Virus record (IMG/VR): IMGVR_UViG_3300037790_000020 | Reading direction: 5' to 3' (one strand) | DNA: 20,000 nt | DNA from: an uncultured virus (IMG/VR IMGVR_UViG_3300037790_000020) | Taxonomy: Duplodnaviria > Heunggongvirae > Uroviricota > Caudoviricetes | Part shown: positions 359-20,000 of the stretch, piece by piece | Layout: each line of letters begins with the position of its first letter | Position numbering within the stretch: the first letter of the stretch is position 1 | Position numbers and translations under genes: made by a program | Notes under the pieces: model-generated | The model's input: the letters and a program-made list of their open reading frames with translations, nothing else | Database searches by the model: none | What the model was told of the DNA's origin: nothing

Positions 359-2839
359 TTATTCAGCCATCTCAGCAAGAATTTCATCAATCTTAGTAGT
401 ATCTAAGTCCGCAAAAGGGTCTAAGAAATCATCATCAGTTTTAATTTTATGTTCCATCTTCTCTCTTTCTAAATCCAATTTATCTCGTTTAAGGTCGAGA
501 GAAGCAGCTTGGTATGGAGTCAGCCCATTACCTTTTCTGGCATTTTGATTTACTTGTTCAATATAAGCTTGTGCTTTTATATAATCAATGTAATCTTGAA
601 ATTCTTGTCTTTTCTTATCTGCAATTGCTTTTTGTCGTTCAAGTTCTAATCTTTTAGCATCCCCAGCACTTTTTGTACCAGCGGATAAACCTGCGAGAAT
701 CTTATCTCCTGAATCACCGTCAGTACCCAGCATAGTTAAACCAGCAATTAAAAGAGGCATATTAATTCCTTTAGAACGGGGTTCTTCTGTTTTTCCGGCC
801 TCTTTATTAATAGGAGTTATCCACGGGGGAAGGACATTTGGAACTGTACTATTACCTTTAGAAGCAACAAATTCGTTTCCTTGTCTAACTGGTCTGTTGT
901 AACTAACTCCTGAATTTGCTTTAAACACTTTACCGGAATCATCCATCTGTAATTGATTTGCATTTAAAGCGGGGATTTTACTTTCATCAAAATCTTTTAA
1001 GTCAGCAACAGTTAGAGGTTTATTTTTGAGACTATTCTCTTGGGTAGAACCCCTATTAAATAGATTTGCAATTTCTTCATTTAAATTATCGTCTACTGAA
1101 ATTTCTTCATACTGAGCTTTAGCATTTTTTGCTAACTGCTGTTGCTTAGCTTCTTTCTTAGCTTGAACTTCCTGTTCGGGAGTAACAAGAAAATCTTTTA
1201 CATGAGGATAAGCGGCGCGGACACCTTTTTCAAGTCCTTCAACAGGGGCAAGAAGCTCATTTAAAATAGAAGCCGGGATATTCTTCAAAGCATTACCTGT
1301 AGAATTAACCATATTCACAGCTTTAGAATTAGCGGGAGAAGTATCTTGTGTTAAATTATAAAGCTCTAAAGAATCCAATTTATCTCTGAAACCTTCAACG
1401 GGTCCGCCATCAGCAAAACCAAATGCACTTAAAAAACTACCGCCAGAACTATCTAAACCAAAAAAGCCATCTGAATTAGGGGAAAGAGTTGGGCCAATAG
1501 GGGCACTATAGTTAGAGGAATCTACACCATCTAAACCACCTTTAAATAAACGGGAGAGCATATTACCATCTGAATCATCAAGGCCAAATTCTTCTATTAA
1601 AGCTTCGAGTCCTAGAGAATCAATTTCTGGGGGTACACCAGAAGCAGGAACAGATGAAGAAATACCGGGGAAACTTGCTCTACCAGCAGGGGCTACCGGA
1701 GCTAGTCTAGCTTGGCTCGCAAGATTAGAAGATACAGGGCCCCCTTCTCTCATCTCAACAGCTTCATCATACTTTACAGTTTTTACACCATTAACTTCAC
1801 CGACTGCATCTGGTTTAACTTGTTCTACATCTTGCGCTATAAGGCCGATTTGTGGGGTTGAATCACCTTTATAATTATATGAATATACAGGTAATCCATT
1901 ATCTAATTCACCTACTTGTTTAATATTCTCTTTTACTCGTTCATCAGAGAACAGTCCTGCAATAGAGGCTACAGAAGATGCAATGCCAGCAACATTACCT
2001 AAAGTACTAGAACCGCCACCACCTTGTTGGTCTTGTGTAGTTGTACCACCTGCATACGCACCAGTTAAAGGATTCATAATATTAGCCAAGAAATTTATAT
2101 TTTCATAAGGATAGGCTTGTTCTCTATCAAATTCTTGGAAATCAAAATCTAGTTCATCTTGTCTTCTTAATCTTTGCAGTTCACCTTGCTTTAACAACTG
2201 AGTAATATCAGCTAAGTTATAGGCTTGCCCACCTTCTACAGTCTGCAAACCTTGAGAAATGCCAGAACTTAGAACATCAGAACCTCGGTTAAACTGGTTT
2301 TGAGCATTATCGAATGCATCAAAACGCCCACGATAATCTAAATCTTGTAATTGTTCTTGTAATAATTCATCTGCTTCAGCTTGTCTAAGTGCAATCCTAG
2401 AACCGCCAAAAGCATTAATCATACCTGCTTCTTGGTCCCGCAGCCGTTGTTGGTCATTATAATTATCAATTGTATTGCGTTTAGAAATATCTAGAACATT
2501 CTCTAGATAAGGATTCATATACTGTTGAATTTGGGCTGAAGTAGGACCGTTAGCTCTACTAATTAAATCGTAAACACTACTAGAAGTAGTATTCAGTAAG
2601 TCATTATACTTACCAGTAGTACTGCGCGTTAAATCAAACGCTGTATTAGCGTCAGTAGTGAAATCAGCGATACGTTGCTGAGTATAGGGAGTAAAGGATT
2701 GCTTAGAAAGAGTTTCAGCGCGTTTAACTAAATTTTTATTTCTTGAATCAAGCCAGCTAGGGACCTGAACTGTTTGGGTAGAGACAGCTCCGCCGCCATC
2801 ATCTCCACCACCTAATAAACCTTTAGCTAAACCACCCAT
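359..2839 (-). CDS. DNA ejection/pilot protein (826 aa) with internal Peptidase_S74-type intramolecular chaperone autocleavage domain
   Basis: Gly-rich N-terminus (MGGLAKGLLGGG), Q/N/A-rich helical region with YMNPY and AFGGSR motifs typical of podovirus pilot proteins; S298-D-E-R-V-K303 followed by VYSYNYKG and GLIAQDVEQVKPDAV (ICA signature); C-terminal hydrophobic segment and coiled coil. Lies directly after a GNAT gene, as P22 gene 7 follows gene 14. Confidence 0.75.
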   Translation of the reverse strand: MGGLAKGLLGGGDDGGGAVSTQTVQVPSWLDSRNKNLVKRAETLSKQSFTPYTQQRIADFTTDANTAFDLTRSTTGKYNDLLNTTSSSVYDLISRANGPTSAQIQQYMNPYLENVLDISKRNTIDNYNDQQRLRDQEAGMINAFGGSRIALRQAEADELLQEQLQDLDYRGRFDAFDNAQNQFNRGSDVLSSGISQGLQTVEGGQAYNLADITQLLKQGELQRLRRQDELDFDFQEFDREQAYPYENINFLANIMNPLTGAYAGGTTTQDQQGGGGSSTLGNVAGIASSVASIAGLFSDERVKENIKQVGELDNGLPVYSYNYKGDSTPQIGLIAQDVEQVKPDAVGEVNGVKTVKYDEAVEMREGGPVSSNLASQARLAPVAPAGRASFPGISSSVPASGVPPEIDSLGLEALIEEFGLDDSDGNMLSRLFKGGLDGVDSSNYSAPIGPTLSPNSDGFFGLDSSGGSFLSAFGFADGGPVEGFRDKLDSLELYNLTQDTSPANSKAVNMVNSTGNALKNIPASILNELLAPVEGLEKGVRAAYPHVKDFLVTPEQEVQAKKEAKQQQLAKNAKAQYEEISVDDNLNEEIANLFNRGSTQENSLKNKPLTVADLKDFDESKIPALNANQLQMDDSGKVFKANSGVSYNRPVRQGNEFVASKGNSTVPNVLPPWITPINKEAGKTEEPRSKGINMPLLIAGLTMLGTDGDSGDKILAGLSAGTKSAGDAKRLELERQKAIADKKRQEFQDYIDYIKAQAYIEQVNQNARKGNGLTPYQAASLDLKRDKLDLEREKMEHKIKTDDDFLDPFADLDTTKIDEILAEMAE

Positions 2840-2851
2840 AATGTATTCTCT

Positions 2852-3328
2852 CTATTCTCTTTTCTTTGTTACCCAAAAGCCTATAGACTCATAACCACGC
2901 TTTTTTAACATCTTAAATTTACGTTCTACATCTTTTGTTGTAAAAAACAATAAACTCAAGGGTAACCCATTAATTTTAGCAAATTCTTCAGCAACAGACA
3001 ACATACGGTTAAATGCATTAAATGACCTAAATTCCTTTTTAATATAGAAAACTACGTCTAGCATTGTTGTTTCATCTGTCCACCAAAAAGAATCTATAAC
3101 TAACCCAAGAACGCCAACTATTACTCCATTATTATCATATACCAGTAAAGTTTTATTTTCTATTAACTTTTCTAATTGTGCTCTTACTTTAGAATCTGAT
3201 GTTGGGGGGAAATACTCCCAATCATTTTCTAAGGGTATTTGGTGTACTAATTCTACACATGCATCTAAATCATCTTTTGTTGCCAATCTTGTTTCAAATG
3301 GCGATACTCTCTTTTTCTCCTCACTCAT
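2852..3328 (-). CDS. GNAT-fold acetyltransferase-like virion assembly protein
   Basis: RLATKDDLD start, LVYDNNGVIVG strand, FYIKKEFRS motif-A region, AEEFAKING, KKRGYESIG end; GAGGAG RBS upstream of 3328. Confidence 0.8.
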   Translation of the reverse strand: MSEEKKRVSPFETRLATKDDLDACVELVHQIPLENDWEYFPPTSDSKVRAQLEKLIENKTLLVYDNNGVIVGVLGLVIDSFWWTDETTMLDVVFYIKKEFRSFNAFNRMLSVAEEFAKINGLPLSLLFFTTKDVERKFKMLKKRGYESIGFWVTKKRE

Positions 3329-3335
3329 TTTTTAA

Positions 3336-3644
3336 TTACTCCTCTGTAATTTCCGGTTGTTCCTCTAAAAGCAACTCTCCTGTCATTAAAATATTCTCTG
3401 CGAAAGCTACGGCTGTTTCTCTATCCATATTATTTACTAAAGCAAAGACTTCTTCTAAAAATCTAAGACCGGGGTCGGTAGCACCGCCTCCTAACTTAGA
3501 AACCTGTTCTGCATTAACCACATACTCTCCTTCAGAAAGCATTGCAGGAATATCATCAGATACACCTGTAGACTCACCATTATCTTTAGGCTGGGCCTGA
3601 ATAGTGTTTAGATAAGAAAGAAGGGGATTTTGGTCTTTATTCAT
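3336..3644 (-). CDS. Stand-alone small protein resembling the SDxIPAxLSxGEYVV domain of tape-measure/internal virion proteins
   Basis: Contains TGVSDDIPAMLSEGEYVVNAEQVSKLGGG; AGGA RBS; has its own promoter candidate just upstream. Confidence 0.65.
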   Translation of the reverse strand: MNKDQNPLLSYLNTIQAQPKDNGESTGVSDDIPAMLSEGEYVVNAEQVSKLGGGATDPGLRFLEEVFALVNNMDRETAVAFAENILMTGELLLEEQPEITEE

Positions 3645-3690: not shown

Positions 3691-3984
3691 TTATAAGCTT
3701 GTAGTAGTTAAATTACCGGAATTATCTACTTGTACTCGCCATCTCGTACCGTCTGGACTTTCTAATATTAAACCATCATCTGAATCATCCACTTCAATAT
3801 CACCACCAAAAACTAAATCCGTAGAAGTGTCAACATAATTAAGACTGATAACCGTATCAATATTTGTATGTTGATTTTCGATATCCCGGTGAAGTTCAAT
3901 AAGATAACGATTTACTTCCTCTAAAGTTTTAAATTCTAAAGGCGGTTGGGTTAAGTTTAATAAAGGCAGTCTATTTACTGGCAT
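3691..3984 (-). CDS. Small tail protein, possible tail needle/plug
   Basis: Short helical N-terminal part plus C-terminal GLILESPDGTRWRVQVDNSGNLTT beta motif seen in phage trimeric fibre ends; immediately follows the nozzle (P22 gp26 position); TAATG overlap at 3984. Confidence 0.5.
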   Translation of the reverse strand: MPVNRLPLLNLTQPPLEFKTLEEVNRYLIELHRDIENQHTNIDTVISLNYVDTSTDLVFGGDIEVDDSDDGLILESPDGTRWRVQVDNSGNLTTTSL

Positions 3985-5795
3985 TATCGTCTCCCACTTT
4001 GTTGTATAGATGCCAAGATTTCTCCTAATCTATAATTTCCATTAACAGTATTACTTCTTAACTGAAAATTGATATAACGTCCCCGAGCTCTTACAAATAC
4101 TTGAGCAGTTGTTGGATTATAAGAATATGATTTAGAGAAAGTTTCTGTTGTATTAGGAAACTTTTTATATTCTAAATCTAAAGTCATTGGGCTAACAAAA
4201 TCACCATCTAAAATAAATCTATCGACTAACATCATATCATTACCAGTATCATCTATCTTAAAAAATCCAGTTTTAATATACGAATCGATTGGCATACCGT
4301 CGTTATTATGGGTGTCTTCATGTGCATATAATATACCGGAAGAATCAAATGCATAAGGCTTATCATAAACAAACGCATCTTCCCATGCCGTTCGTTCTAA
4401 AGTACCATCATACCAAACATTATCTTTATAATTATATATAATATATCTATTTATTTCTGTACTATTTTTATCTGGTAAAAAATACCATATCTCATCAAAT
4501 TCTCTATTACGGCCAATGAAACATTTAATTTTCTGTTCTTCATTAAAGTAACCGTCTTCATTTGAATCAAAATAAAATAAATCTAATGTAGAAGGGAGAA
4601 TACGTACAACTCCATCATACATCCTAAACCCTTCCTCGCTTAACCAAAATACTCGGCCATCTACATCAGTTACCGCTTTTGGGGATATAATACCTGAGGT
4701 ATCTGATACAAGAGTAACTTCATAAACAAGGTCATCATTTCTGGGGCGCATACGATATACTGCTTTGTCCGTAAAAACAAGTATCTCACCATTACGTGTT
4801 TCAACAGCACTGATAATCTTAGTGCCTCGAGTCAGCCTAAACTCACCCGAATTAGAACCGGGGGCAGTTGGGTCAAATTCCGTATAATCTTCATTATCAG
4901 ACCAACGAATTAAAAGGGGGTCAAATGTACCACTAACATCTTTAGTACCAAATAAAATACATTGCCTGAAATACCCGGAGACAATCATCCAATTAGATTG
5001 GTCTGGGGCATCTGTAACTTCCGTAGCTCGTGTTGAAGTACCTGCGGAAGTATCCCAATAATAAAGTGCCCCGCCGGAAGGTAGTATAAGTAAATCTTCG
5101 CCCCAATTCTCTAAAGAAGTAATTCGGGCATCAGCTATAACACCTTCTGTTCTAGGGGTCCCCCATGTGGAATCGGACCATAAACCTGTACCGTAGCCAT
5201 AACCGCTATTACCTGAGTCACATAGACCACTCTCTAAAAGATAATTAATATCTACTGAGCCACCACCTGTGCCAGAAGCGGTAGCATTACTAGACGCAGT
5301 TATTACGTAATTATCTGCATCGGTTACTGATTGAACTTCATATTCACCAGAAAACGTAATTCCATTATAAGTAACGTCGGAATCAAATTCAATAAAATCT
5401 CCTACCGATGCACTATGAAGAGTATCTTCTATAGATACAGAAGCAGAACCGCTTGTTGTAGTAATTGGGTCTGTCAAATTTGACGTAGCACGAATAGGAG
5501 TTATATCAAAATAAGTACCACCTTCTCGTACATAAAAATGATTATTAGAAGCCGCAGCCAAATAAAGAGTTGTGTCTAATGCTTGCCAAGTATGCATAGA
5601 ACGAATACATCCTTTAGGGGAATTTGAATTGATTTCACTAACCCAACCACCAAGTTTTTGTGGCTTTAATTCACGAAAACGAACTTTATCCCCATCGACA
5701 TAAAAAGGGACATTACCGGATTCAATGGCCGTAGCATTTTTAAAAATACCGGGCTGAATCTGCACTGGAACTAATCGTGAACTTTTTGCAGTCAT
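3984..5795 (-). CDS. Tail nozzle / tail tubular protein B (P22 gp10-like stabilization protein)
   Basis: 603 aa beta-rich; motifs DGDKVRF, ENWGEDL, DPLLIRWSDNED, FDEIWYF, YNYKDNVWYDGTLERTAW, RARGRY and C-terminal SGRR typical of this family; Thr/Gly-rich inserted beta domain near the N-terminus. Confidence 0.8.
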   Translation of the reverse strand: MTAKSSRLVPVQIQPGIFKNATAIESGNVPFYVDGDKVRFRELKPQKLGGWVSEINSNSPKGCIRSMHTWQALDTTLYLAAASNNHFYVREGGTYFDITPIRATSNLTDPITTTSGSASVSIEDTLHSASVGDFIEFDSDVTYNGITFSGEYEVQSVTDADNYVITASSNATASGTGGGSVDINYLLESGLCDSGNSGYGYGTGLWSDSTWGTPRTEGVIADARITSLENWGEDLLILPSGGALYYWDTSAGTSTRATEVTDAPDQSNWMIVSGYFRQCILFGTKDVSGTFDPLLIRWSDNEDYTEFDPTAPGSNSGEFRLTRGTKIISAVETRNGEILVFTDKAVYRMRPRNDDLVYEVTLVSDTSGIISPKAVTDVDGRVFWLSEEGFRMYDGVVRILPSTLDLFYFDSNEDGYFNEEQKIKCFIGRNREFDEIWYFLPDKNSTEINRYIIYNYKDNVWYDGTLERTAWEDAFVYDKPYAFDSSGILYAHEDTHNNDGMPIDSYIKTGFFKIDDTGNDMMLVDRFILDGDFVSPMTLDLEYKKFPNTTETFSKSYSYNPTTAQVFVRARGRYINFQLRSNTVNGNYRLGEILASIQQSGRR

Positions 5796-6863: not shown

Positions 6864-7523
6864 TTAACCTTTCGTATTAAGACCCCCTTCAGGATTATAG
6901 ACGTGAGCATTATCATCCCGTCTATCTCGTACTCCTTCTATATTGGTCGAGCCGAGAGCTTCTTGAAGCTTATTTTCCCATTCGGCTTTAAATTCTGAAT
7001 CTCTCATCCATTCTGCTGCCGCACTTAAAGATGCGTATAAAAGAAGGTCGGGGTACTTCGTTATAAATATATTTGTTTGGTTACTAGAACTTAAAGCTGT
7101 TGGTTGAGCCTCATAATCAATAGTAACATTATAGCTTCCGTCGGCAGTTGGAGCCACTGTCCATTGTGTATCATTTTTATTCCCATAATATTTAGGCACT
7201 CCTGTAGCCGTAGTTGAAGGCCAATAATCTCTTATAAAAGATTCACTTTTACGTATAAGCCTGACTAATTCTCCGCCAACTGTTATATATAAATTTTTTG
7301 TTACTCTATGGTCTGTAGGTTTTGTTATCGTCTTATTATTTACCGTTAAAGTTTTACTCGTATCTTCTTTTGTAAAATCATGGTCCACTAAACGAAATAA
7401 ACGTTCTTCGGCTAAATATATAGCTGTAGGTATATAATCAACAAATTCTTGAGAAGTATCTTCTGCAATTTCTTGGATTATCGCTTTTAAATTATTATAA
7501 CTAGTGGGTAAATAAGTAGTCAT
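6864..7523 (-). CDS. Head-tail adaptor / tail tubular protein A, paralogue 2
   Basis: SYNNLKAIIQ..E...F...IP..I.LAEERL, GVPKYY, VAPTADGSYNVTIDY, YPDLLLYASL: podovirus adaptor family pattern. Confidence 0.75.
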   Translation of the reverse strand: MTTYLPTSYNNLKAIIQEIAEDTSQEFVDYIPTAIYLAEERLFRLVDHDFTKEDTSKTLTVNNKTITKPTDHRVTKNLYITVGGELVRLIRKSESFIRDYWPSTTATGVPKYYGNKNDTQWTVAPTADGSYNVTIDYEAQPTALSSSNQTNIFITKYPDLLLYASLSAAAEWMRDSEFKAEWENKLQEALGSTNIEGVRDRRDDNAHVYNPEGGLNTKG

Positions 7524-10110: not shown

Positions 10111-10794
10111 TTATCTTGGGATATCGGGATAAACCCAAAAATCCGTTCTTTCTCTATCCTCTAAAAACGCCCGGTCTAATCGAGCTTCGTATTCTTGGAA
10201 AATTGCTGCTACTTTTTCCGCCTCTATCCCCTCTTTTTTAAATGACATAAAATAGGCTAAACCCATTGATAGGGCGGGAAGATAACGATAATTCATATCC
10301 ACTAATTGATATGACTTTGTAACATCTTTATGGCGGCGCATACCCCAATATTCAATAGTACCGGAAGCTGCATCTGAATCAGGAACAGGCCAAACAATTA
10401 GTTTAGATGGACTTACAGTTCTATCAAAAGCATATGTATTTGGTTTGCCGTCTGTAGATTTAGTTGGTATATTGAAATAATCAAAAAGGGAGGTGGGATA
10501 CATTTGAATTTCAGTACCATCACTAGTTTTAAAATTAACATCTAAAATTCCAATGATATCAGCATCTAGGGTATATTCGGCTTGGTCTTGTACTAAAGAT
10601 ACTGAGTTTTTCTCTAAATGGGCTAAAGGATACTCACGATTAGCCAAATCAATCATTAACAAATTCAGTGAGCGTCTTGCTGAACGCATATCGTAGCCGT
10701 TCGTATATTCACCCTTCAAAATATCAAAAGCTTCTTCTAATATCTCATCAACAGGTAAATTAAACTCAGTTGTAGCTGAAACGGCTTCTACCAT
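10111..10794 (-). CDS. Head-tail adaptor / tail tubular protein A, paralogue 1
   Basis: FNLPVDEILEEAF, GYDMRSARRSLNLL, GKPNTY, VWPVPD, RYLPALSMGLAY, EDRER motifs; strong AAGGAG RBS. Confidence 0.8.
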   Translation of the reverse strand: MVEAVSATTEFNLPVDEILEEAFDILKGEYTNGYDMRSARRSLNLLMIDLANREYPLAHLEKNSVSLVQDQAEYTLDADIIGILDVNFKTSDGTEIQMYPTSLFDYFNIPTKSTDGKPNTYAFDRTVSPSKLIVWPVPDSDAASGTIEYWGMRRHKDVTKSYQLVDMNYRYLPALSMGLAYFMSFKKEGIEAEKVAAIFQEYEARLDRAFLEDRERTDFWVYPDIPR

Positions 10795-10839: not shown

Positions 10840-12063
10840 TTACGCAGTTCCATCTAATACTCTCGTACCAATTTGCTGAATTGGAACCGTGGTTTCATCC
10901 TGGCAGCAGGCAAATACGTAAAGCCCTGAGGGGGTAACATCGACCACGTTATGGTCGGCCTGAATACCGGGAAAGATGTTTACTTTCGTTGAGGCCGTGC
11001 AGACTAAGCTCTCACTGACGCTCACAACAACAGCTGCCCCGGCCTGAGGCGATTCATCCTGCATACGGGAAGCGAACATAGCGCACCTGTTTGGAAGCTC
11101 CGTGACTGTACCTGTTCCCTGAAAGATATCGTTGCTGCCGAATATAGCCGTTGCCGCCGTGCCTCTTGTGATATTCTCTCCATCCCACGAATAAGCATTG
11201 GCATCAACACTGGAACCGCCAGCGTTTTCATAGGCCATTACACAAACATCATCGGCAATGTAAGCGGCCATCATATCGTCATACTGGTTGGAGGCAGCAT
11301 CGACATCAATCCGGGCTTCTTCCGTGCAGTTTGTGCCAGATACGCTAAAGTACCTCACAGCGGAATCCTCAGCCGCCACATCGGTATTACCAACCCAAAA
11401 AGCGGAACCGTCCGCCTTCGCCTTACAGATAGCCGGGTAGTCCAGAGTGGAGTTAATATCCACTCTCGTGCCAATCGTAATATTATCGCCGTTGGTATCA
11501 ATCACAAACACCTGCCCGTTTGATGTATCGCCATCATCACGCATCACGGCAGCTGCTTTTGTGCCGCTAAGCTCAGTTAAAGCACAGCGGAAATTAGGCG
11601 TGGTCAGGTTAAGGGATGTCTCTACGTCCGTCTCTGTCAGGGTTTTGCCGGATTTGGTAAGTAAGGCCACTACCCCGGTCGAGCCGGAAGTCGTGCTTTC
11701 ATAAAGACAGAGGAATTTTGTATCGCTTAATTTAACGATATTAAAGCCTGTACCATCGGCATGAGTAAGCTGGACTGGCGTGTTGGTGTCTATCGCGTCA
11801 AATGCCTTGTCTGCGATATCGACGACAACGGCCTGAACATTATTATCAGCGTCCTGATAAATCATTACAGCCTCAGTGTCCGAAACAGCAGCTATGTCTT
11901 GCGCGCCTGTACCGCCACCAGTTGCGAGTTGCGTAACACTTCCATCATTGGTACCATCCCAAGAAGCCCAATCAGCAGAAGGAGCTACGACAGTAGATTC
12001 TGAAAACATAGTTTCTTGAGATGAACCTAATACAGAATTAATTAAGGAGTTTCTAATTGTCAT
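10840..12063 (-). CDS. Predicted seven-bladed beta-propeller virion protein with atypical base composition
   Basis: Seven ~50-aa repeats beginning DIAAVSDTEAVMIYQD, NIVKLSDTKFLCLYES, ALTELSGTKAAAVMRD, AICKAKADGSAFWVGN, MAAYIADDVCVMAYEN, TVTELPNRCAMFASR, VVDVTPSGLYVFACCQD; AAGGAG RBS; GC-rich core. Confidence 0.6.
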   Translation of the reverse strand: MTIRNSLINSVLGSSQETMFSESTVVAPSADWASWDGTNDGSVTQLATGGGTGAQDIAAVSDTEAVMIYQDADNNVQAVVVDIADKAFDAIDTNTPVQLTHADGTGFNIVKLSDTKFLCLYESTTSGSTGVVALLTKSGKTLTETDVETSLNLTTPNFRCALTELSGTKAAAVMRDDGDTSNGQVFVIDTNGDNITIGTRVDINSTLDYPAICKAKADGSAFWVGNTDVAAEDSAVRYFSVSGTNCTEEARIDVDAASNQYDDMMAAYIADDVCVMAYENAGGSSVDANAYSWDGENITRGTAATAIFGSNDIFQGTGTVTELPNRCAMFASRMQDESPQAGAAVVVSVSESLVCTASTKVNIFPGIQADHNVVDVTPSGLYVFACCQDETTVPIQQIGTRVLDGTA

Positions 12064-12539: not shown

Positions 12540-13478
12540 TTATGAACCACCTGCTGAACCGTAAACTTTACGCCAGTTACCAACCATGAAAGCATAACGC
12601 TCAGTAGCAGTAGTAATAATATTACCAGTGTACGGGTCAGTATACTCCATGTCGATTTCTAATGGGCGTCTCTGCCAATGAATAAGACCGTAGTCTACAT
12701 CAGTCATAATGAACCAAGCATTAGAATCCGTCAAGTAATCGTAAATCATAAAATCTTGGAAAAATCCACGAGACTTAAGGCTATTCACATTGTTTGTGTT
12801 AGTACCATAGTCAGGACTTGTACCAGTAGCAATACTAGTGCTCAAGTCAGATTTAAGGATTTCGAAGGCATCAAAAGCATCATCAGGGTGTACAATAAGT
12901 TTCTGAGGAGCAACTTTAATTTTAAGTTGTCTGTCATCAACAAAGTCTGTACGGATAGTCGTGATAGCGTTTTTCAACGACGTATCAGAAATATCAGCAC
13001 TTACAGAGTTAGAAACTGTACCACCAAATTGCAATGGGTGAGCTGTATCACAAAGAGGCTCGCCATCACCAATTGGTGCACCTGAATCAAAAGCTAGGTT
13101 AAAGATAGAAGCTCCACGAAGTTCTTTGGTTTCGCCCATAGAACGTGAAAGATTCTGACCCATCATCTCGGACTTAGACTCATAAAGGTTATCTTCAATA
13201 GCTTCACGAGTAATCGCAAAACCCAATCCAATAACTGAGTGTTCTGCACGAGCGGTATAACCGTCACTCATTGTGTCTAGGAAGATTTGGTCACCTTCTG
13301 GCTTCACAGGTGCAAGACCCGTTCCAACAGTCATAATCATTTCTTCATAGGCTTTATCTGACTTCTTAGTTTCGAAAACTTGTTTACACTGTTCGGTAAA
13401 ACGTGCGTAGTTTTTTCCCATCAATCCCGCAAGACCGGGACGAAGGCGTTTAACAATATCTGCTCTACTTAATGGCAT
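12540..13478 (-). CDS. Major capsid protein (HK97 fold, Mu gpT-like family)
   Basis: MPLSRADIVKRLRPGL, SDKAYEE, APVKPEG, GFAITREAIEDNLY, GDGEPLCDTAHP, KLIVHP, YLTDSNAWF, ERYAF..NWR..YGS motifs; followed by a terminator. Confidence 0.9.
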   Translation of the reverse strand: MPLSRADIVKRLRPGLAGLMGKNYARFTEQCKQVFETKKSDKAYEEMIMTVGTGLAPVKPEGDQIFLDTMSDGYTARAEHSVIGLGFAITREAIEDNLYESKSEMMGQNLSRSMGETKELRGASIFNLAFDSGAPIGDGEPLCDTAHPLQFGGTVSNSVSADISDTSLKNAITTIRTDFVDDRQLKIKVAPQKLIVHPDDAFDAFEILKSDLSTSIATGTSPDYGTNTNNVNSLKSRGFFQDFMIYDYLTDSNAWFIMTDVDYGLIHWQRRPLEIDMEYTDPYTGNIITTATERYAFMVGNWRKVYGSAGGS

Positions 13479-14728: not shown

Positions 14729-15910
14729 TTAGAACTTTTGCCGTTGGTTATCTTTTTTAATCTCTAGAGCATAATCTTGTAAGGTAATACCATGAGGCTC
14801 TAGGTGATTTTTCCAATACCTATACATTTCCTTATCAATTACGACTTTATTAGAGCCTTTATTTTGGGAATTTGAATTAGGTGAGGACGAACGGGAAGGT
14901 CCTTTTGCAGGAACATTCTTAGATTTATTAGTTGTTCGTGGTTTTTCCGTCTCACCAGACGCGTCGTTGTCAGAGTTTTCTGACTCGCTATGTGTATAGT
15001 TTAACGCATCTAATCCATCTGATGCAAGTGCTTCATAAAAATCAAATTTTCCTGAAAGCCTAATATCCATCTCTTCATAAAAAACCGGGTCAGCATTACT
15101 AAACCCTTCAGCAAGTAATTGACGGGCTATATTAGCCATCTCTTGTCTTACTGGAGAAAGTTTTTTACGTTGTTCAATATCCAAAGATGCATATTCATCA
15201 TTATTGATAAGAAACTCTTTTCCTTCTGTCCACTCTTCAGCAGCTTCACTCAAACCTTGATTACTAGAAGATTGAGTCTTTTGAGGTTGTGGTTTTTGTT
15301 TTTCTGGAGTATCTGCAACATTCTGTAGGTGTCTAATATGACTCTGAGACTCAATAAGCTGTTTAGTGATAGAAGCAATCTTTTCTCCATCTCCATCTTC
15401 TGCCGCAGCCTTTAGAGCAGCTTCTAACCGAGCAACATCAGCTGTTAAACGTTCTAACTCTACTTTGGCGTAAGTAGAAGTAGTTTCATCATACTCAGCT
15501 TTAATAGCTTCCATCTCAGCATTTTGGGTAGCAATAAAATTCTCAAGTTCTTTAATTTTAGCATTTTGCTGCTTAATACGTTCTTTTGCCCGAGATTTTC
15601 GTTTCTTCTCTGCTTTCTCAGCTTCTTCTGCTTTCTTTCTTTCTTCTTCTGAGTCAACAGACTCAGTATCTTCATCTTCCCCAGAATCTTGGGGCTCATC
15701 TACTTCAGAATCTTCTTCTTTTTCAACATATTTATCTTCTTCGTTTTCTTCGAGTTCAACTTCAACATCCTCAATCTCACCAATGGGTGTACCATCAGTG
15801 TCTAGTTGAAAACTAACTCTATTAGAAGAAGGATTATCGTTATCGTCTTCTAAGAAGTCATTTAAACTTTCGTCTACAACTTCTACTTCTACTTTTTTAT
15901 CTTTGGGCAT
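14729..15910 (-). CDS. Capsid scaffolding protein
   Basis: Very acidic N-terminus, long coiled coil (RAKERIKQ...), low-complexity linker, C-terminal GITLQDYA helix; lies between portal and MCP. Confidence 0.7.
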   Translation of the reverse strand: MPKDKKVEVEVVDESLNDFLEDDNDNPSSNRVSFQLDTDGTPIGEIEDVEVELEENEEDKYVEKEEDSEVDEPQDSGEDEDTESVDSEEERKKAEEAEKAEKKRKSRAKERIKQQNAKIKELENFIATQNAEMEAIKAEYDETTSTYAKVELERLTADVARLEAALKAAAEDGDGEKIASITKQLIESQSHIRHLQNVADTPEKQKPQPQKTQSSSNQGLSEAAEEWTEGKEFLINNDEYASLDIEQRKKLSPVRQEMANIARQLLAEGFSNADPVFYEEMDIRLSGKFDFYEALASDGLDALNYTHSESENSDNDASGETEKPRTTNKSKNVPAKGPSRSSSPNSNSQNKGSNKVVIDKEMYRYWKNHLEPHGITLQDYALEIKKDNQRQKF

Positions 15911-16442
15911 TATTCTCTCTTTCCTCTTTCCGTCTATTTATAGTGGCTTTTGGCCCACCATTTACTTCTTGAATCTGATTTTGTAAATCAGCTAGTAAAC
16001 TTTCATCATAATCATAGTATGGATTAATATCTCGGATATCGTCAACTGTATATAATAACGATTCATCTGGCATTAAATAGAATTTACGACCCCCATGAAT
16101 AATCGTCTGAGAAAAGGAAGCTCTAGAGAATACTGCGTAATCACCTGCCTCACACCAAGGGATAAATTCATTTGTTTCGGGATTTTTAAATTTATTATGC
16201 TTATAGGCTAAATCGCCTAATTTTACTACTACCCCTGCGGTAATCATATTTTCATGGGTTTCTGCTACATCTTCAGGTAATTCAAGGGTAAAACCTGTAT
16301 TTGCATCCTTAATAGTAGGTTTAAGGGCAATTGGGTATACTAGAATATACCATGAACCCTTTAGATTTGGCAAGCTCTTAGGTAGTTTAAGTTCTTCATT
16401 ATCAAAAGTCATTAAATCATCTAATTTTTGTATATGTGTCAT
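15897..16442 (-). CDS. groES: Divergent, extended GroES-like co-chaperonin
   Basis: YILVYP, loop TGFTLELPE, GVVVKLGDLAY, WCEAGDYAVF, GRKFYLMPDESLLYTVDD follow the Cpn10 pattern (ILV..GGIxLP..GxVVAVG..GDxVxF..YLIxxExDILAV); 181 aa with N- and C-terminal extensions. Confidence 0.75.
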   Translation of the reverse strand: MTHIQKLDDLMTFDNEELKLPKSLPNLKGSWYILVYPIALKPTIKDANTGFTLELPEDVAETHENMITAGVVVKLGDLAYKHNKFKNPETNEFIPWCEAGDYAVFSRASFSQTIIHGGRKFYLMPDESLLYTVDDIRDINPYYDYDESLLADLQNQIQEVNGGPKATINRRKEERENNAQR

Positions 16443-16867
16443 TATTTATTCTCCTTTAAACTAATCACTGGTGCTACGCATCCCTCTGCTTTTTCAGGTA
16501 GATTACAATTACCTATTAACCTAACCCTAAACCCCACTTTTCTAATACCAGTTAATTCGTCATTCTCTATTAAATATACAGGTAACATACGTAAAACCAA
16601 AGTGGAATTTTCTTCAATAGACTTCACCCAATAATCTAATAACTCTAAAGAAAATTCTCTACACTTTCTGTCTACATCTTCCTCAGTAAAAAGTTTATCC
16701 TCTATCGCTTCTATAGTACAGTTTTCTGGTATACCATAAAAAGCGTAAGTAACATAAGCTCCAAAAGATGTATCATAAGAAAATGGTTCACCAAAAATTA
16801 CATTTACCTTTTTATTTTGTAGCGTCCGCAAGGCTTTAAATATATCTTCGTTTGAATACTGTAGCAT
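16442..16867 (-). CDS. Hypothetical protein between groEL and groES
   Basis: 141-aa ORF with TAATG overlaps at both ends (16867 and 16442) and AAGGA upstream; no family recognised. Confidence 0.65.
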   Translation of the reverse strand: MLQYSNEDIFKALRTLQNKKVNVIFGEPFSYDTSFGAYVTYAFYGIPENCTIEAIEDKLFTEEDVDRKCREFSLELLDYWVKSIEENSTLVLRMLPVYLIENDELTGIRKVGFRVRLIGNCNLPEKAEGCVAPVISLKENK

Positions 16868-18513
16868 TATTCAAGTCCTTTTTCAGTATTGACAATACTT
16901 ACTTCTGTCGTAATTAAGAGGCCAACCACATTAGCAGCATCTTTTAAAGCGTTTTTAACAACTTTTGCAGGGTCAATAACCCCTTGCTTAATAAGATTAC
17001 AGAACTCGTTTTTATCTACATCAAAGCCTTCATCTTTCGTTTTTAGTACTTGTAACATGATAGATTTGGCTTCTTCCTCATCTACACCTGCATTTGCAAG
17101 AATTGTATAGAAGGGGGATTGCAGCGCTTTAATAATTAAATCTGCCCCTTTTGAAGTTCCTGAATTTCGAGATAAATACTCAGATACTCTAAGAAGCATG
17201 GTACCACCACCAGCAACAATTCCCTCTTCTACTGCGGCTTTAGTAGCATTAATAGCATCTTCAATGCGGTCTTTACGTTCACCAATATCAATTTCAGAAG
17301 AACCACCTACTCGAATAACGGCAATACCACCACTGAGTTTAGCCAATCTACCTTCTAAAAGCGTATATTTGGAATCTGTTTTCTTAGTCTCCTCGACCAA
17401 AGACTTTAGGTGAGCAATACGGGTTTCTAATTTTTCAGCATCTTTATCACCATCAATAAATTCAGATAATTCTTGACCTACTCGAACACGTTTACAATAA
17501 CCTAAATGTTCCTGTGTAACACTACCAATACCTAAGCCACTTTCTGCGTTAATAACAATTCCACCAGTCACAATTGCTAAGTCTTCCATCATATCTGCTC
17601 TAGAAGGGAGGAAATCAGGCAATTTAAGAACTGCAATTTTTAATCCATTTCGAACTTTATTCAAAACAAGAGTAGAAAGAACATCACTTGCTATATCAGG
17701 ACAAATAACAATAAGAGCTTTTCCGGCTTCATGGCATAGATTAACTACAGGAAGAATTTCTTTAATATCATTAATCTTTGCATCATAAAATAAAATATTA
17801 CAGTCAGTTAAATCAGCAATACCTTTATCTGGATGCGTAATAAAATGGTTAGAAGCGAAACCCGCAGGAAACTCCATACCCTCAACAATATCTAAAGTCA
17901 TTTCATCTAGAGGTGCGGGTTCTACAGAAATAATACCGTGAGGGCCAACTTCTTCAACAGCCTTAGAAACGATATTACCTACTTCTGTATCGCCATTAGC
18001 TGAAATAGTAGCGATATTTTTTAGGCTTTCAGTATCTTTAACATCTATTGCATTTAAAGAAATATACTCGATAGCTTCTTTAACCGTTTCATCCATTTCA
18101 CGTTTTAACGTAACAGGATTAATACCATTATTAATACATTGCATGGCATCTCTAGCAATAGCTTGAGCTAAAACAGTTGCAGTTGTTGTACCATCTCCTG
18201 CCATCTCATTTTGACGAGTAGCAACTTCTTTTACAATCTGTACACCTAGATTTTGGAATTTATCATCTACATTTATTTCTTTAGCAACAGAAACACCGTC
18301 TTTTGTAATACGGGGCATTAATCCTACATAGTTTTGCATTAAACCAGTAGTTTTAGATTGTTCAATAACTACATTGCGGCCCCTAGGACCAAGGGTTGCT
18401 TTAACAGCGTTAGCAATTAAGTCAACACCTTTCATAATTTCTTCTCGGGATTCACTCCCAAATTTTAATTCTTTATTTTTAGTTGGTGATTCGGGTTGGC
18501 GTAGCTCGTTCAT
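16867..18513 (-). CDS. groEL: Group I chaperonin GroEL (548 aa)
   Basis: TLGPRGRNVVI, ITKDGVSVAKEI, AGDGTTTATVLA, ISANGD, RLAKLSGGIAVIRVG, KDRIEDA, AAVEEGIVAGGG, GVIDPAKV. Start set at ATG 18513 (MNELRQ), which has AAAGG upstream; the track start at 18540 is a TTG. Confidence 0.97.
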   Translation of the reverse strand: MNELRQPESPTKNKELKFGSESREEIMKGVDLIANAVKATLGPRGRNVVIEQSKTTGLMQNYVGLMPRITKDGVSVAKEINVDDKFQNLGVQIVKEVATRQNEMAGDGTTTATVLAQAIARDAMQCINNGINPVTLKREMDETVKEAIEYISLNAIDVKDTESLKNIATISANGDTEVGNIVSKAVEEVGPHGIISVEPAPLDEMTLDIVEGMEFPAGFASNHFITHPDKGIADLTDCNILFYDAKINDIKEILPVVNLCHEAGKALIVICPDIASDVLSTLVLNKVRNGLKIAVLKLPDFLPSRADMMEDLAIVTGGIVINAESGLGIGSVTQEHLGYCKRVRVGQELSEFIDGDKDAEKLETRIAHLKSLVEETKKTDSKYTLLEGRLAKLSGGIAVIRVGGSSEIDIGERKDRIEDAINATKAAVEEGIVAGGGTMLLRVSEYLSRNSGTSKGADLIIKALQSPFYTILANAGVDEEEAKSIMLQVLKTKDEGFDVDKNEFCNLIKQGVIDPAKVVKNALKDAANVVGLLITTEVSIVNTEKGLE

Positions 18514-18739
18514 CTCCGTTACCTTTCGTTTGTTCCTCAATAATATCTTTTAATTCATCTACAACTTCATCTAATTGATAAATACGGGCAGCACAAATAC
18601 CAGCATCATGATGATGGTTATCAATTAGATTTTGAGTCATTTGCCCTTGCAAAAAACTTTTTGTATCTTGTATGTATTTCATTAAATCACTGATAATAGA
18701 ATCATCATCAGCACGTATAACTATCTGTCCATCAGACAT
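18479..18739 (-). CDS. Small helical protein downstream of portal
   Basis: 86 aa, GAGG RBS, predicted two-helix protein in the usual post-portal position; 3' end overlaps the groEL start by 35 nt. Confidence 0.6.
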   Translation of the reverse strand: MSDGQIVIRADDDSIISDLMKYIQDTKSFLQGQMTQNLIDNHHHDAGICAARIYQLDEVVDELKDIIEEQTKGNGDERATPTRITN

Positions 18740-18785: not shown

Positions 18786-20000
18786 TTATTTCGTTTTGTC
18801 AACTGGTCCGACATTATTAGGCATATTTAGGTCCTCAAGGGCTTTTTGTATCATTCCAGAACCAGCTTGGAACCTAGCCTTGGCAAAATCTGCCCTAATT
18901 TTATCAGAAGCTTCAGCAGAATCCTGTAAAAGCTCTGCCGCTTTAAGATTCAGTTTTCTATCTTCTAAAGCCAGTTTACCAGTATCGATTTCTTTCTTAT
19001 GAGCAAGTTCCTCTTTACGTGTAGCCGCGTTTTCTAATTCACTTTGAGCTAACATAGCAGCGGGGTCTTTAGAAGCTAATGCCTCTTCAAAGGCAATTTC
19101 TTCATGGAAACGCTGTATCTGTAGAGCGGCATCTGCCATTGCTTTTTCACTTTGAGGATTAGCTCCATTAAGCTTCAGTTGAGCTCCTAAATCACGAACA
19201 TAAAGCAGCATTGCATGTTCTGCAATATTGGCCTGTAAAAGGGGAATAATATTTGCAGCTAATTCTTGCCCACCACCCTTAGGGTCTTGTAAGAAAGCTT
19301 GTTTAAAGGCAATATGGGCTTCGTGGTCTTGACCCTCAAATGCTCTAATTGGTTTACCTTGAGAAAGAGTAACAATATCGGATAATGGGTCAAGAGGTAC
19401 AGCTTCTTGTGGAGAAGGTAGTAATCTTTCAATCTCCTCTGGTTCCATCCCAATTTGGGAATAAAACTCAGTATATGCAGCACGTAGGTCATGAAAATCT
19501 GGAGCTTGTTGTGCAGCAGCTAATTTTGTTTGAGCAATAGCAATTCTATGTGCAGAAGAAGAAAGATTGGGGTCGGCAGCAGGCATAATATCAACTTTGC
19601 CACTAAAGTCTTCTCTCCGAACAGAGAACATCTCTCCTTTTAGGAAAAAGTCTTGTGTTTCATCTAAAACATCATAGTTCAAATCATGTAGAATTTCAAA
19701 TTCAGCTTTTAAACTATTATAAAATCTTTTTAGAATACCTGAAGTAAATTTAGTAGATGCTTCTAGAAGGGCAACAGTTGTACCAACTGGCCCATAATTT
19801 GTGGAATCCGCAATGACCTGCTCTGTCGAGTCTGCGAACTTCTGAGCACGGCCATCTAAGAACTGAACTATTCTTTCCAAGACTTGGCTCGGTTCTTTGA
19901 AATCCAAAGGCATTAGAACATCTTTAATATTTTTCGTACCAGTATCAATCTCTCTAAACTCACCAAAACGAATAGGCATTTGCGAGTCCCGAGTAAATCG
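18786..20000 (-). CDS. Portal protein, C-terminal part (5' truncated by window)
   Basis: Frame stays open beyond 19979 to the edge (RFTRDSQMPIRFGEFRE); GEFREID, LMPLDFKEPS, PVGTTVALLE, PAADPN, AFEGQDHEAHI motifs of this portal family. Confidence 0.85.
   Translation of the reverse strand, partial: RFTRDSQMPIRFGEFREIDTGTKNIKDVLMPLDFKEPSQVLERIVQFLDGRAQKFADSTEQVIADSTNYGPVGTTVALLEASTKFTSGILKRFYNSLKAEFEILHDLNYDVLDETQDFFLKGEMFSVRREDFSGKVDIMPAADPNLSSSAHRIAIAQTKLAAAQQAPDFHDLRAAYTEFYSQIGMEPEEIERLLPSPQEAVPLDPLSDIVTLSQGKPIRAFEGQDHEAHIAFKQAFLQDPKGGGQELAANIIPLLQANIAEHAMLLYVRDLGAQLKLNGANPQSEKAMADAALQIQRFHEEIAFEEALASKDPAAMLAQSELENAATRKEELAHKKEIDTGKLALEDRKLNLKAAELLQDSAEASDKIRADFAKARFQAGSGMIQKALEDLNMPNNVGPVDKTK

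What the first reader, a model, noticed from the sequence alone, without database searches (positions are those of the whole stretch)
1397..3644. Possible split recognition module: xxxGGPV motifs in the ejection protein and a stand-alone SDxIPAxLSxGEYVV domain
Seen: MREGGPV (res 363, 1733-1753) and FADGGPV (res 475, 1397-1417) occur in disordered parts of the 826-aa protein, while the 102-aa protein (3336-3644) consists of the SDDIPAMLSEGEYVV domain and has no such motif before it. Recalled knowledge: in tape-measure C-termini such as lambda gpH, [FY]AxGG motifs flank a GE[FY]V domain within one chain, near the maturation-cleaved end. Inference: this phage encodes the domain in trans, and the GG motifs are tags it binds for packaging or processing of cargo into the head. 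I know of no description of this as a system.
Basis: inference. Interest (0 to 1): 0.7.

Follow-up and report, generated by a model that had tools for sequence, protein, structure and literature searches.

The report
Gly-Gly joints and stand-alone tape-measure module
A short-tailed phage's injected protein carries two conserved Gly-Gly peptides, and a small neighbouring protein carries the other half of a joint module common in phage tail-ruler proteins; whether the two touch is still untested.

Summary
MREGGPV (1733-1753) and FADGGPV (1397-1417) lie in the 826-aa protein. The 102-aa protein carries SDDIPAMLSEGEYVV and has no GG motif before it.

Both are pieces of one widespread module that no Pfam or NCBIfam model picks out. 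Its pattern is [FY]AxGGx[VI], eight residues, SDxIPAxLSxGE[FY]V, a helix, then [FY]AxGG. A profile of the 102-aa family finds 11,647 cluster representatives, mostly giant tape-measure-like proteins with several copies.

The 826-aa protein is a polyprotein-like ejection protein with an internal self-cleaving Peptidase_S74 domain. Of its 87 homologues, 82 carry the GG motif. The first copy typically sits about 72 residues after the S74 serine, where ordinary S74 proteins end.

Every related phage with this fused protein and readable upstream DNA encodes a core-bearing small protein. Split-gene relatives have none. The tree allows only one or two independent events.

T5's only mapped tape-measure cut (after R1127) falls exactly before an AEGG.

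An AlphaFold2 monomer shows no GG-core contact.

Best reading: conserved processing or docking joints plus an accessory core protein.

The parts
359..2839 (-). 826-aa ejection polyprotein (P0001): N-domain, internal Peptidase_S74, two GG joints, C-terminal part with a conserved hydrophobic segment
   Evidence: phrog_4287 'DNA ejection protein', residues 16-359, E 1.2e-33. 87 homologues, some carrying SLT, lysozyme or Hydrolase_2 domains after S74.
1949..2839 (-). N-terminal domain, residues 1-297
   Evidence: Conserved block in alignment A2. It is a separate gene in split-type relatives and in Brucella phage Pr gp23.
1754..1948 (-). Internal Peptidase_S74 (intramolecular chaperone) domain, residues 298 to about 362; predicted self-cleavage before S298
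   Evidence: PF13884, 45.1 bits against a cut-off of 22, residues 298-346. S298, D299, E300, R301 and K303 are invariant in 15 of 15 sequences.
1733..1753 (-). GG joint 1, MREGGPV (residues 363-369), directly after the S74 domain
   Evidence: 46 of 69 homologues with a recognisable S74 serine have a motif 55-125 aa after it, most often at 72. Ordinary S74 proteins end 62-77 aa after the serine.
1397..1417 (-). GG joint 2, FADGGPV (residues 475-481)
   Evidence: G478 and G479 are invariant. 43 of 69 homologues have two or more motifs after S74.
674..772 (-). Conserved hydrophobic, Gly-rich segment (about residues 690-722), possibly membrane-active
   Evidence: G700 and G708 invariant; L696, M703 and G717 nearly invariant. 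The membrane role is an inference.
2852..3328 (-). 158-aa GNAT-type acetyltransferase, a conserved cassette member
   Evidence: phrog_1249, E 1e-11. PF00583 scores below its cut-off. Same position in MW202675.1, in the fused relatives and in Brucella phage Pr.
3336..3644 (-). 102-aa stand-alone core protein (P0002)
   Evidence: Small family of 96-130 aa proteins. Fits the canonical-module profile at residues 22-52, E 1e-15.
3495..3569 (-). Core of the joint module (residues 26-50, includes SDDIPAMLSEGEYVV); no GG half before it
   Evidence: Hits tape-measure PHROGs 6090 and 5448 and the tape measure proteins of phages Douge and JBD30 in the PDB sequence set.
3691..3984 (-). 97-aa protein between the nozzle-like gene and P0002; a small protein sits at this place in relatives too
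   Evidence: Synteny in MW202675.1 and L008. No confident family hit.
3984..5795 (-). 603-aa nozzle-like virion protein, first gene of the cassette
   Evidence: phrog_3287, E 5.5e-47. Homologues lie upstream of the S74 protein in 54 loci.

Best explanation
The window holds the DNA-ejection cassette of a short-tailed phage. The gene order is: nozzle-like protein, 97-aa protein, 102-aa core protein, acetyltransferase, 826-aa ejection polyprotein.

Shown:
- The 102-aa protein is a free-standing copy of the core of an unannotated 55-70-aa 'joint module' of tape-measure and ejection proteins.
- The two xxxGGPV peptides are orphan copies of the GG end-piece of that module.
- They are the only strongly conserved residues in a fast-evolving linker.
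- The first one sits exactly where the internal self-cleaving S74 chaperone domain ends.

Inferred: the GG peptides are joints at which the polyprotein is taken apart or docked. After trimerisation the S74 domain cuts before S298. The GG joints then delimit the spent chaperone domain and the linker ahead of the membrane-active C-terminal part. They are probably cut just before the residue at position -2 from GG, as in phage T5, where the tape measure protein is cut between R1127 and AEGG.

The 102-aa core protein is the most likely reader of these joints. In tape measure proteins the core lies in cis, eight residues after the GG pair. Here it would work in trans. Whether it only binds, guides a cut or cuts by itself is open.
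For: Module definition:
- A profile of the 102-aa family finds 11,647 cluster representatives at E<=1e-3. Among the 150 best listed, most are 1,000-7,800 aa with 3-10 copies.
- In 352 cores from 149 of these proteins, G stands at -10 in 87% and A at -13 in 75%.
- 87 of 107 windows have a second [FYWM]xxGG after the helix.
- In 88 of 125 proteins of 900 aa or more, the last GG motif lies 40-120 aa from the C-end. Lambda (75 and 120 aa), JBD30 (77 aa) and T5 (92 aa) fit this.

Conservation in ejection proteins.

Position after S74: the commonest distance is 72 aa after the serine, against protein ends at +62 to +77 in ordinary S74 proteins.

Cut site: T5 pb2 is cut after R1127 (PMC10038345, passages). 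The sequence there reads R|AEGG, one of only two A.GG sites in 1,219 aa. In lambda, a cut before A734 would give a 12.5-kDa fragment against about 14 kDa reported. The real site and its catalyst are unknown (PMC12617516, passages).

Cassette link:
- A small-protein profile hits 20 of the 80 S74 loci. These are 19 of the 20 fused-type loci plus L009, whose type is unknown because the contig ends. The twentieth fused locus lacks upstream DNA. None of the other 59 loci is hit.
- Brucella phage Pr has the split form, with no core protein and no canonical GG motif by eye.
- A third lineage (80 loci) has a core-bearing protein and tandem GG motifs in the protein after the N-domain gene.
- Across 78 loci: both features 54, neither 14, core only 8, GG only 2.
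Against:
- AlphaFold2 of the complete module (64-row alignment) is confident only for the GEFV-helix part (pLDDT 87-88). The GG stretches score 51-56, and the model has no strand and so no GG-core pairing.
- The P0002 model is poorly ordered over the core.
- The co-occurrence is not phylogenetically independent. There is one change of state on the nozzle tree (branch support 62) and two on the N-domain tree, giving 1-2 independent pairs and a sign test of p = 1.
- The canonical-module profile does not hit T5 pb2, so T5 supports the GG site only, not a role for the core.
- The cut in T5 lies before Ala, which rules out the usual Ser/Thr/Cys self-cleavage chemistry.
- The conserved D and E of the core are not kept in all variants. 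Module 1 of the two-module relatives has GSYV, and lambda lacks the SD.
- GG joint 1 here has Arg, not Ala, after the first residue.
Confidence: 0.42

Rival explanations
1. The 102-aa domain binds the GG peptides non-covalently as tags. This recruits or holds the ejection protein (the cargo) in the procapsid or pre-ejectosome, and no cutting is involved.
For: The same grammar and cassette co-occurrence as above. The core of P0002 is poorly ordered on its own, as expected of a segment that folds on a partner. In fused relatives the next ejection protein also carries RAxGG[RK]V about 55 aa before its C-end, so several virion proteins share the peptide.
Against: The AlphaFold2 module model shows no GG-core contact. 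No other GG-bearing protein was found in about 45 kb of this phage or its near relative. The third lineage (six members read) and some stand-alone relatives carry their own cis GG, which would compete for the core. Nothing in any call links the motif to head packaging. The only experimental anchor, T5, is a cut site in a tail protein.
Confidence: 0.2
2. There is no specific reader. The GG peptides are flexible seams or hinges at module boundaries. They are kept because ejection and tape-measure proteins must thread unfolded through a narrow channel and refold, or because they serve as recombination seams. The 102-aa protein is an unrelated small virion or ejection component that docks elsewhere, for instance on the portal, the nozzle or the membrane.
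For: GG motifs outnumber cores (764 against 352) and 555 have no core within 60 aa downstream. They occur in tandem and at domain borders next to lysozyme domains. The AlphaFold2 model leaves them disordered. The co-occurrence can be explained by shared ancestry.
Against: A plain hinge would not need an aromatic or basic residue, Ala, GG and a branched residue in fixed register, nor invariant GG columns across 27-72% identical homologues. The GG pair sits at a fixed eight residues before the core's SD in most canonical modules. T5 is cut exactly there.
Confidence: 0.3
3. The 102-aa protein, or the core in general, is itself a small acid protease that cuts before AxGG. It would act in cis in tape measure proteins and in trans here.
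For: D30 and E40 are invariant in the 12-member family. All conservation lies on the C-terminal side of the T5 cut, as for self-cleaving S74. The catalyst of the lambda gpH cut is unknown.
Against: The D and E are not universal across module variants. T5 has no recognisable core. No fold was predicted and no structural match found. There is no similarity to any peptidase family in Pfam, NCBIfam or PHROGs.
Confidence: 0.08

Closest known systems
Lambda tape measure protein gpH, glycine-rich C-terminal region (N-terminal part of the cleaved fragment gpHC)
   Same: One chain carries FATGG (733), a GEFV core and YATGG (778). The region lies at the maturation cut. It is unresolved by cryo-EM (residues about 690-817) and has no known function (PMC12617516, passages).
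   Different: In lambda the halves are in cis, in a long-tailed phage. Here the core is a separate 102-aa protein with no GG of its own, and the GG peptides sit in a short-tailed phage's ejection protein. The lambda core is divergent (no SDxIP), and the canonical-module profile matches it only weakly (9.1 bits for the matched stretch).
T5 tape measure protein pb2, cut into pb2* and pb2C after R1127
   Same: The mapped cut lies directly before AEGG, which fits the motif [basic or aromatic]-A-x-G-G. It is 92 aa from the C-end, in the range where the last GG motif of canonical proteins lies.
   Different: T5 has no recognisable GEFV core. The catalyst is unknown. It is a tail protein, not a head-packaged ejection protein.
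Endosialidase-type intramolecular chaperone (Peptidase_S74, PF13884)
   Same: P0001 residues 298-346 score 45.1 bits, with the S-D-x-R-x-K signature invariant.
   Different: The domain is internal, with 529 aa from the serine to the C-end, instead of C-terminal. It sits in an ejection protein rather than a fibre or spike. A GG joint stands where the protein would normally end.
Podophage ejection (internal virion) proteins such as T7 gp14-16, P22 gp7/16/20 and A4 gp26-29
   Same: Gene position after the nozzle gene. Homologues carry peptidoglycan hydrolase domains and are annotated 'internal virion protein D'.
   Different: No sequence match to any solved chain. The review and the A4 paper mention no GG motif, S74 domain or core protein (passages).
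Two-module small proteins of fused-type relatives (for example MW202675.1, 193 aa)
   Same: Same cassette position, between the nozzle gene and the acetyltransferase. Same core type, followed by a G-x-G turn and a helix.
   Different: They have two cores, one with its own cis xAxGG. P0002 has one core, no GG, and a different helical C-terminal half.
Phage polyvalent proteins (Iyer et al. 2017, PMC5512222)
   Same: Large multi-module proteins delivered with the DNA and proposed to be processed into units.
   Different: That paper proposes a zincin-like MPTase as the processor. 'Glycine' and 'linker' do not occur in its main text. P0001 has no such peptidase domain.

Membership tests
Tape-measure joint module (unnamed; lambda gpH 733-785 type) | Core matching SDxIPAxLSxGE[FY]V | tested here: met
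   P0002 residues 22-52 against a profile of 64 canonical modules, E 1e-15. PHROG tape-measure families 6090 and 5448. The tape measure proteins of Douge and JBD30.
Tape-measure joint module (unnamed; lambda gpH 733-785 type) | [FY]AxGGx[VI] with GG eight residues before the SD of the core | tested here: not met
   P0002 has no GG before the core. Only 3 of the 20 aligned stand-alone relatives have it.
Tape-measure joint module (unnamed; lambda gpH 733-785 type) | Helix after the core, followed by a second [FY]AxGG | tested here: inconclusive
   Helices are predicted after the core (45-50, 60-71, 75-94) but no trailing GG motif is present. 87 of 107 canonical windows have one.
Orphan GG joint (end-piece of the module) in P0001 | Aromatic, Met or basic residue, then A-x-G-G-x-[VI], conserved among homologues | tested here: met
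   FADGGPV fits fully. MREGGPV has R in place of A. The GG columns are invariant in 15 of 15 sequences. 82 of 87 homologues carry the motif.
Peptidase_S74 (PF13884) | Profile score above the gathering cut-off | tested here: met
   45.1 bits against 22.
Peptidase_S74 (PF13884) | Ser-Lys dyad in S-D-x-R-x-K (the role of the residues is recalled from the endosialidase literature) | tested here: met
   S298 and K303 are present and invariant.
Peptidase_S74 (PF13884) | C-terminal position, released after cleavage | tested here: not met
   529 aa run from the serine to the C-end. In the 80 S74 loci, 20 are of this internal type.
Peptidase_S74 (PF13884) | Autoproteolysis actually occurs | not testable with these tools
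   Needs protein chemistry.
Ejection / internal virion protein D-like (phrog_4287) | Profile match and position after the nozzle gene | tested here: met
   E 1.2e-33 over residues 16-359. Synteny.
Ejection / internal virion protein D-like (phrog_4287) | Peptidoglycan hydrolase domain | tested here: not met
   None in P0001. Present in some homologues: PF01464, PF07486, PF18013, PF00959, PF05838.
Peptidase (for P0002) | Similarity to a known peptidase family, or a conserved catalytic set | tested here: not met
   No family hit. D and E are not kept across module variants.

The most novel reading that the evidence does not exclude
The GG joint, read by the GEFV core, is a general self-processing system of phage DNA-delivery polyproteins. 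In long-tailed phages the core sits in cis and directs the cut that frees the C-terminal hub-bound fragment of the tape measure protein (lambda gpH to gpH* plus gpHC; T5 pb2 to pb2* plus pb2C). In short-tailed phages a free core protein does the same in trans on ejection polyproteins, after an S74 domain has made the first cut. This would name both the site and the agent of the lambda gpH cleavage, unknown since 1974.
Probability: 0.13. Interest if true: 0.85.

Novelty: new variant of a known kind. Interest (0 to 1): 0.55.

Why it matters
Tape measure and ejection proteins build the channel through which phage DNA enters the cell. How they are matured is poorly known. For lambda gpH a 2025 structural paper still calls the cut site and the catalyst unknown.

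This report describes a short, very widespread module that no domain model singles out (11,647 cluster representatives). It ties that module to the one mapped cut site, in T5. It also shows a natural trans arrangement in short-tailed phages, with the GG peptide placed exactly at the end of an internal self-cleaving chaperone domain.

This gives concrete, cheap tests: the predicted N-termini A734 of lambda gpHC and S298, R364 and A476 of this protein. It also gives a sequence signature that could improve annotation of giant phage proteins.

Tried and rejected
The binding question is therefore open.
- AlphaFold2 of P0002: mean pLDDT 66, with the core region 49-59.
- AlphaFold2 of the canonical module: mean pLDDT 68, no strand and no GG-core pairing.
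- Foldseek of that module model against the PDB: 0 matches.
- No solved structure covers the module. Douge's tape measure protein is modelled only for 1658-1699, JBD30's only for its last 33 residues, and lambda gpHC residues 690-817 are unresolved.
- Pfam, NCBIfam and PHROGs have no model that picks out the module. TIGR01541 spans gpH 472-813 as one lambda-specific block.
- ESM Atlas: only unnamed viral clusters.
- Idea that split-type genes start at the motif's Met, which would mimic a cut N-terminus: rejected. The motif lies 46-176 residues into the ORFs, with upstream in-frame ATGs.
- Idea that fusion of the ejection protein and presence of the small protein are strictly coupled: rejected. 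A third lineage has the split N-domain gene together with both core and GG motifs.
- Independent-pairs test of co-occurrence: too few transitions, p = 1.
- The canonical-module profile does not hit T5 pb2.
- The weak resemblance of P0001 residues 703-721 to the core scored -1.2 bits and is taken as chance.
- 'LARGGTA' in split-type relatives lies in a helical Gln-rich context and was not counted as a joint.
- Literature: a search for the motif strings returned only primer sequences. 'GEFV' occurs in none of the 15 tape-measure papers listed. The P1 virion paper gives no tape-measure cut site. JBD30's 'cleaved at residue 1066' cites the T5 paper and I take it as an analogy, not a measurement.
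Full report
**What is in the window.**

All genes run on the minus strand and form the structural module of a short-tailed phage. In order they are:
- portal (18786-19979, open at the window edge);
- a phage GroEL;
- major capsid protein (12540-13478);
- two SU10-type adaptor paralogues and fibre-like genes;
- a 603-aa nozzle-like protein (3984-5795);
- a 97-aa protein;
- the 102-aa protein P0002 (3336-3644);
- a GNAT-type acetyltransferase (2852-3328);
- the 826-aa protein P0001 (359-2839).

No close relative is in the GenBank phage set. The nearest held record (G001, 75% shared words) ends inside P0002.

**Check of the observation.**

GGPV twice in a shuffled P0001 has P = 5e-5.

Conservation matters more. 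In a 15-sequence alignment (27-72% identity to P0001), the only invariant columns between the S74 domain and residue 650 are G366, G367, G410, G478 and G479.

Among the 87 homologues found:
- 82 carry the motif;
- of the 69 with a recognisable S74 serine, 46 have a motif 55-125 aa after it (most often at 72) and 43 have two or more;
- motif density is 2.9 per 1000 aa after S74 against 0.15 before;
- 139 motifs are observed against 23.8 in shuffles.

**What the 826-aa protein is.**

Residues 16-359 match PHROG 4287 ('DNA ejection protein', E 1.2e-33). Residues 298-346 match Pfam Peptidase_S74 (45.1 bits, cut-off 22). The S-D-x-R-x-K signature (S298 to K303) is invariant. That these residues form the catalytic dyad is recalled from the endosialidase literature, not tested here.

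Unlike ordinary S74 proteins, which end 62-77 aa after the serine, P0001 continues for a total of 529 aa from the serine. GG joint 1 stands exactly at that usual end point.

Some homologues carry lytic transglycosylase, lysozyme or other cell-wall hydrolase domains further on. One is annotated 'internal virion protein D'. P0001 has none. It does have a conserved hydrophobic, Gly-rich segment near residue 700.

The protein therefore looks like a polyprotein: N-domain, self-cleaving chaperone domain, joint, linker, joint, effector part.

**What the 102-aa protein is.**

It has no Pfam or NCBIfam family. Residues 19-55 match tape-measure PHROGs and the tape measure proteins of phages Douge (two copies) and JBD30 in the PDB sequence set.

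It belongs to a small family of 96-130-aa proteins. A profile of this family finds 11,647 cluster representatives at E<=1e-3 among 1.84 billion. In the 150 best listed, most hits cover only positions of about 19-58 and occur 3-10 times in proteins of 1,000-7,800 aa.

**The canonical module.**

From 352 cores in 149 of the listed proteins, the module reads [FY]AxGGx[VI]-x-G-P-G-T-G-T-SDSIPAMLSNGEFV[VI]NA. G stands at -10 in 87% and A at -13 in 75%, counted from the S of SD. A helix ending in ..IN.G follows. In 87 of 107 windows a second [FYWM]xxGG comes next.

GG motifs (764) outnumber cores (352), and 555 have no core within 60 aa downstream.

In 88 of 125 proteins of 900 aa or more, the last GG motif lies 40-120 aa from the C-end. 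The module thus marks the junction between the body of the ruler protein and its C-terminal hub-bound piece.

Lambda gpH fits, with FATGG at 733, GEFVF, and YATGG at 778. So does JBD30.

P0002 has the core but not the GG half. P0001 has GG halves but no core.

**Is 'split' the design?**

Only partly.
- Of the 20 aligned stand-alone relatives, 3 keep a cis GG before the core.
- In related phages with the same cassette, the small protein has two cores, one with its own xAxGG.
- In a third, large lineage (80 loci kept of 390 relatives), the six members I read show the core at the C-end of a protein of about 100-1,000 aa. That protein has several GG motifs, one of them directly before the core.

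The absence of GG in P0002 is therefore particular to this lineage. Orphan GG motifs in the ejection proteins are the general rule.

**Co-occurrence.**

I fetched 80 loci with an S74 domain.
- Twenty have the internal, fused type. A profile of the small protein hits 19 of them. The twentieth (L034) has no upstream DNA.
- The profile also hits L009, which is cut by its contig end.
- It hits none of the other 59 loci, although 32-35 of these show the nozzle gene upstream. L008, L014 and L020 were missed by my first regular expression and found by eye.

Brucella phage Pr shows the split form: nozzle-like gene, acetyltransferase, N-domain plus C-terminal S74, then separate downstream genes. It has no core protein and no canonical GG motif by eye.

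Adding the third lineage, 78 usable loci give: both features 54, neither 14, core only 8, GG only 2. Several 'core only' loci have looser GG motifs.

Kin share labels, however. The nozzle tree needs one change of state (branch support 62). The N-domain tree needs two, giving only 1-2 independent pairs and a sign test of p = 1.

The association is real and spans three lineages, but it is not statistically independent evidence of an interaction.

**What the GG motif may do.**

The T5 paper (PMC10038345, passages) maps the tape-measure cut 'after R1127' by mass spectrometry. In the T5 record the sequence there is R|AEGG. This is one of only two A.GG sites in 1,219 residues and lies 92 aa from the C-end. 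Basic residues are common at the first motif position (K 13%).

For lambda, the Ur-lambda paper (PMC12617516, passages) says three things:
- a peptide of about 14 kDa is removed from the glycine-rich C-terminal region;
- the site and the catalyst are unknown;
- gpH residues 690-817 are unresolved.

A cut before A734 would give 12.5 kDa. This supports 'processing joint' more than 'packaging tag'. It rests on one mapped site.

It also makes sense of GG joint 1. A cut there would release the spent S74 chaperone domain from the effector part, just as ordinary S74 proteins shed theirs.

**What speaks against a GG-core contact.**

- An AlphaFold2 model of the complete module (64 rows) is confident only for GEFV plus the helix (pLDDT 87-88). 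The GG stretches score 51-56, and the model has no strand.
- The P0002 model is poorly ordered over the core and better in two C-terminal helices.
- Foldseek finds nothing.
- No solved structure covers the module.

A monomer model cannot exclude contacts in a trimer or hexamer.

**Against a protease role for the core.**

- The conserved D and E are not universal.
- T5 has no recognisable core.
- The cut precedes Ala, which excludes Ser/Thr/Cys self-cleavage chemistry.

**More tagged proteins?**

In the window plus about 40 kb of the near relative G001, only P0001 carries the motif, apart from one chance-like match in GroEL.

In fused-type relatives the next ejection protein carries RAxGG[RK]V about 55 aa before its C-end. 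In this phage that gene is cut off by the window start.

**Literature.**

I found no description of the motif or module.
- Motif strings returned only primers.
- 'GEFV' is absent from the tape-measure papers listed.
- The ejection-protein review, the A4 paper, the PhiGT1 paper and the polyvalent-protein paper do not mention it (passages).

Supplements were not read. Figure S5G of the T5 paper, which shows the cut site, was not seen.

**Earlier notes of this scan.**

After my own T5 check, a look-up showed several AI notes from other genomes on the same AxGG joint. One concerned a two-module stand-alone protein, and two noted the T5 match. They agree with my reading but are not independent evidence.

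**Verdict.**

The parts belong to a widespread, unannotated joint module.

The best-supported reading is that the GG peptides are processing or docking joints of a self-processing ejection polyprotein, with the 102-aa core protein as their likely reader (confidence about 0.4).

Noticed in passing
window 16867-18540 (-) and 15897-16442 (-): Phage-encoded GroEL (PF00118, E 6.5e-61; phrog_5725, E 6.8e-136) with a weak GroES-like neighbour (phrog_3188, E 3.4e-4). Both sit between the portal and capsid genes.
   Followed up: no
window 10111-10794 (-) and 6864-7523 (-): Two paralogous SU10-type adaptor proteins (PF24175, E 4.4e-12 and 3.2e-24) in one tail module.
   Followed up: no
window 10840-12063 (-): A 407-aa ORF with no family hit lies in the only stretch with GC about 0.50, against about 0.37 elsewhere.
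   Followed up: no
L010 6352-8751, L016 11288-13321, L039 9555-11951 and others: In fused-type relatives the protein after the ejection polyprotein (678-1,052 aa) carries RAxGG[RK]V about 55 aa before its C-end, followed by a conserved C-terminal peptide. This layout resembles a tape measure protein. The matching gene of this phage is cut off at window position 1.
   Followed up: partly
L093-L172 (third lineage): The protein after the separate N-domain gene carries tandem joints of the form xAxGGIVAFxxGGxV, 46-176 residues from the start of its reading frame, after a Pro/Gln-rich stretch.
   Followed up: partly
window 2804-2839 (-), P0001 residues 1-12: The N-terminus MGGLAKGLLGGG is Gly-rich and conserved in homologues (M1, G10 and G11 nearly invariant).
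   Followed up: no
window 2852-3328 (-); L006 8694-9188; L091 2781-3221: An acetyltransferase gene directly precedes the S74-bearing ejection gene in the fused-type phages. Some split-type phages have one in the locus too, including Brucella phage Pr, where it directly precedes that gene. This suggests a virion-associated or injected enzyme.
   Followed up: no
L090 (T5) pb2 residues 1128-1150: The stretch after the T5 cut (GG, then GEHGTEVV) loosely recalls the GE[FY]VV core. The T5 paper places a metallopeptidase motif just after the cut. The module profile does not score it.
   Followed up: partly
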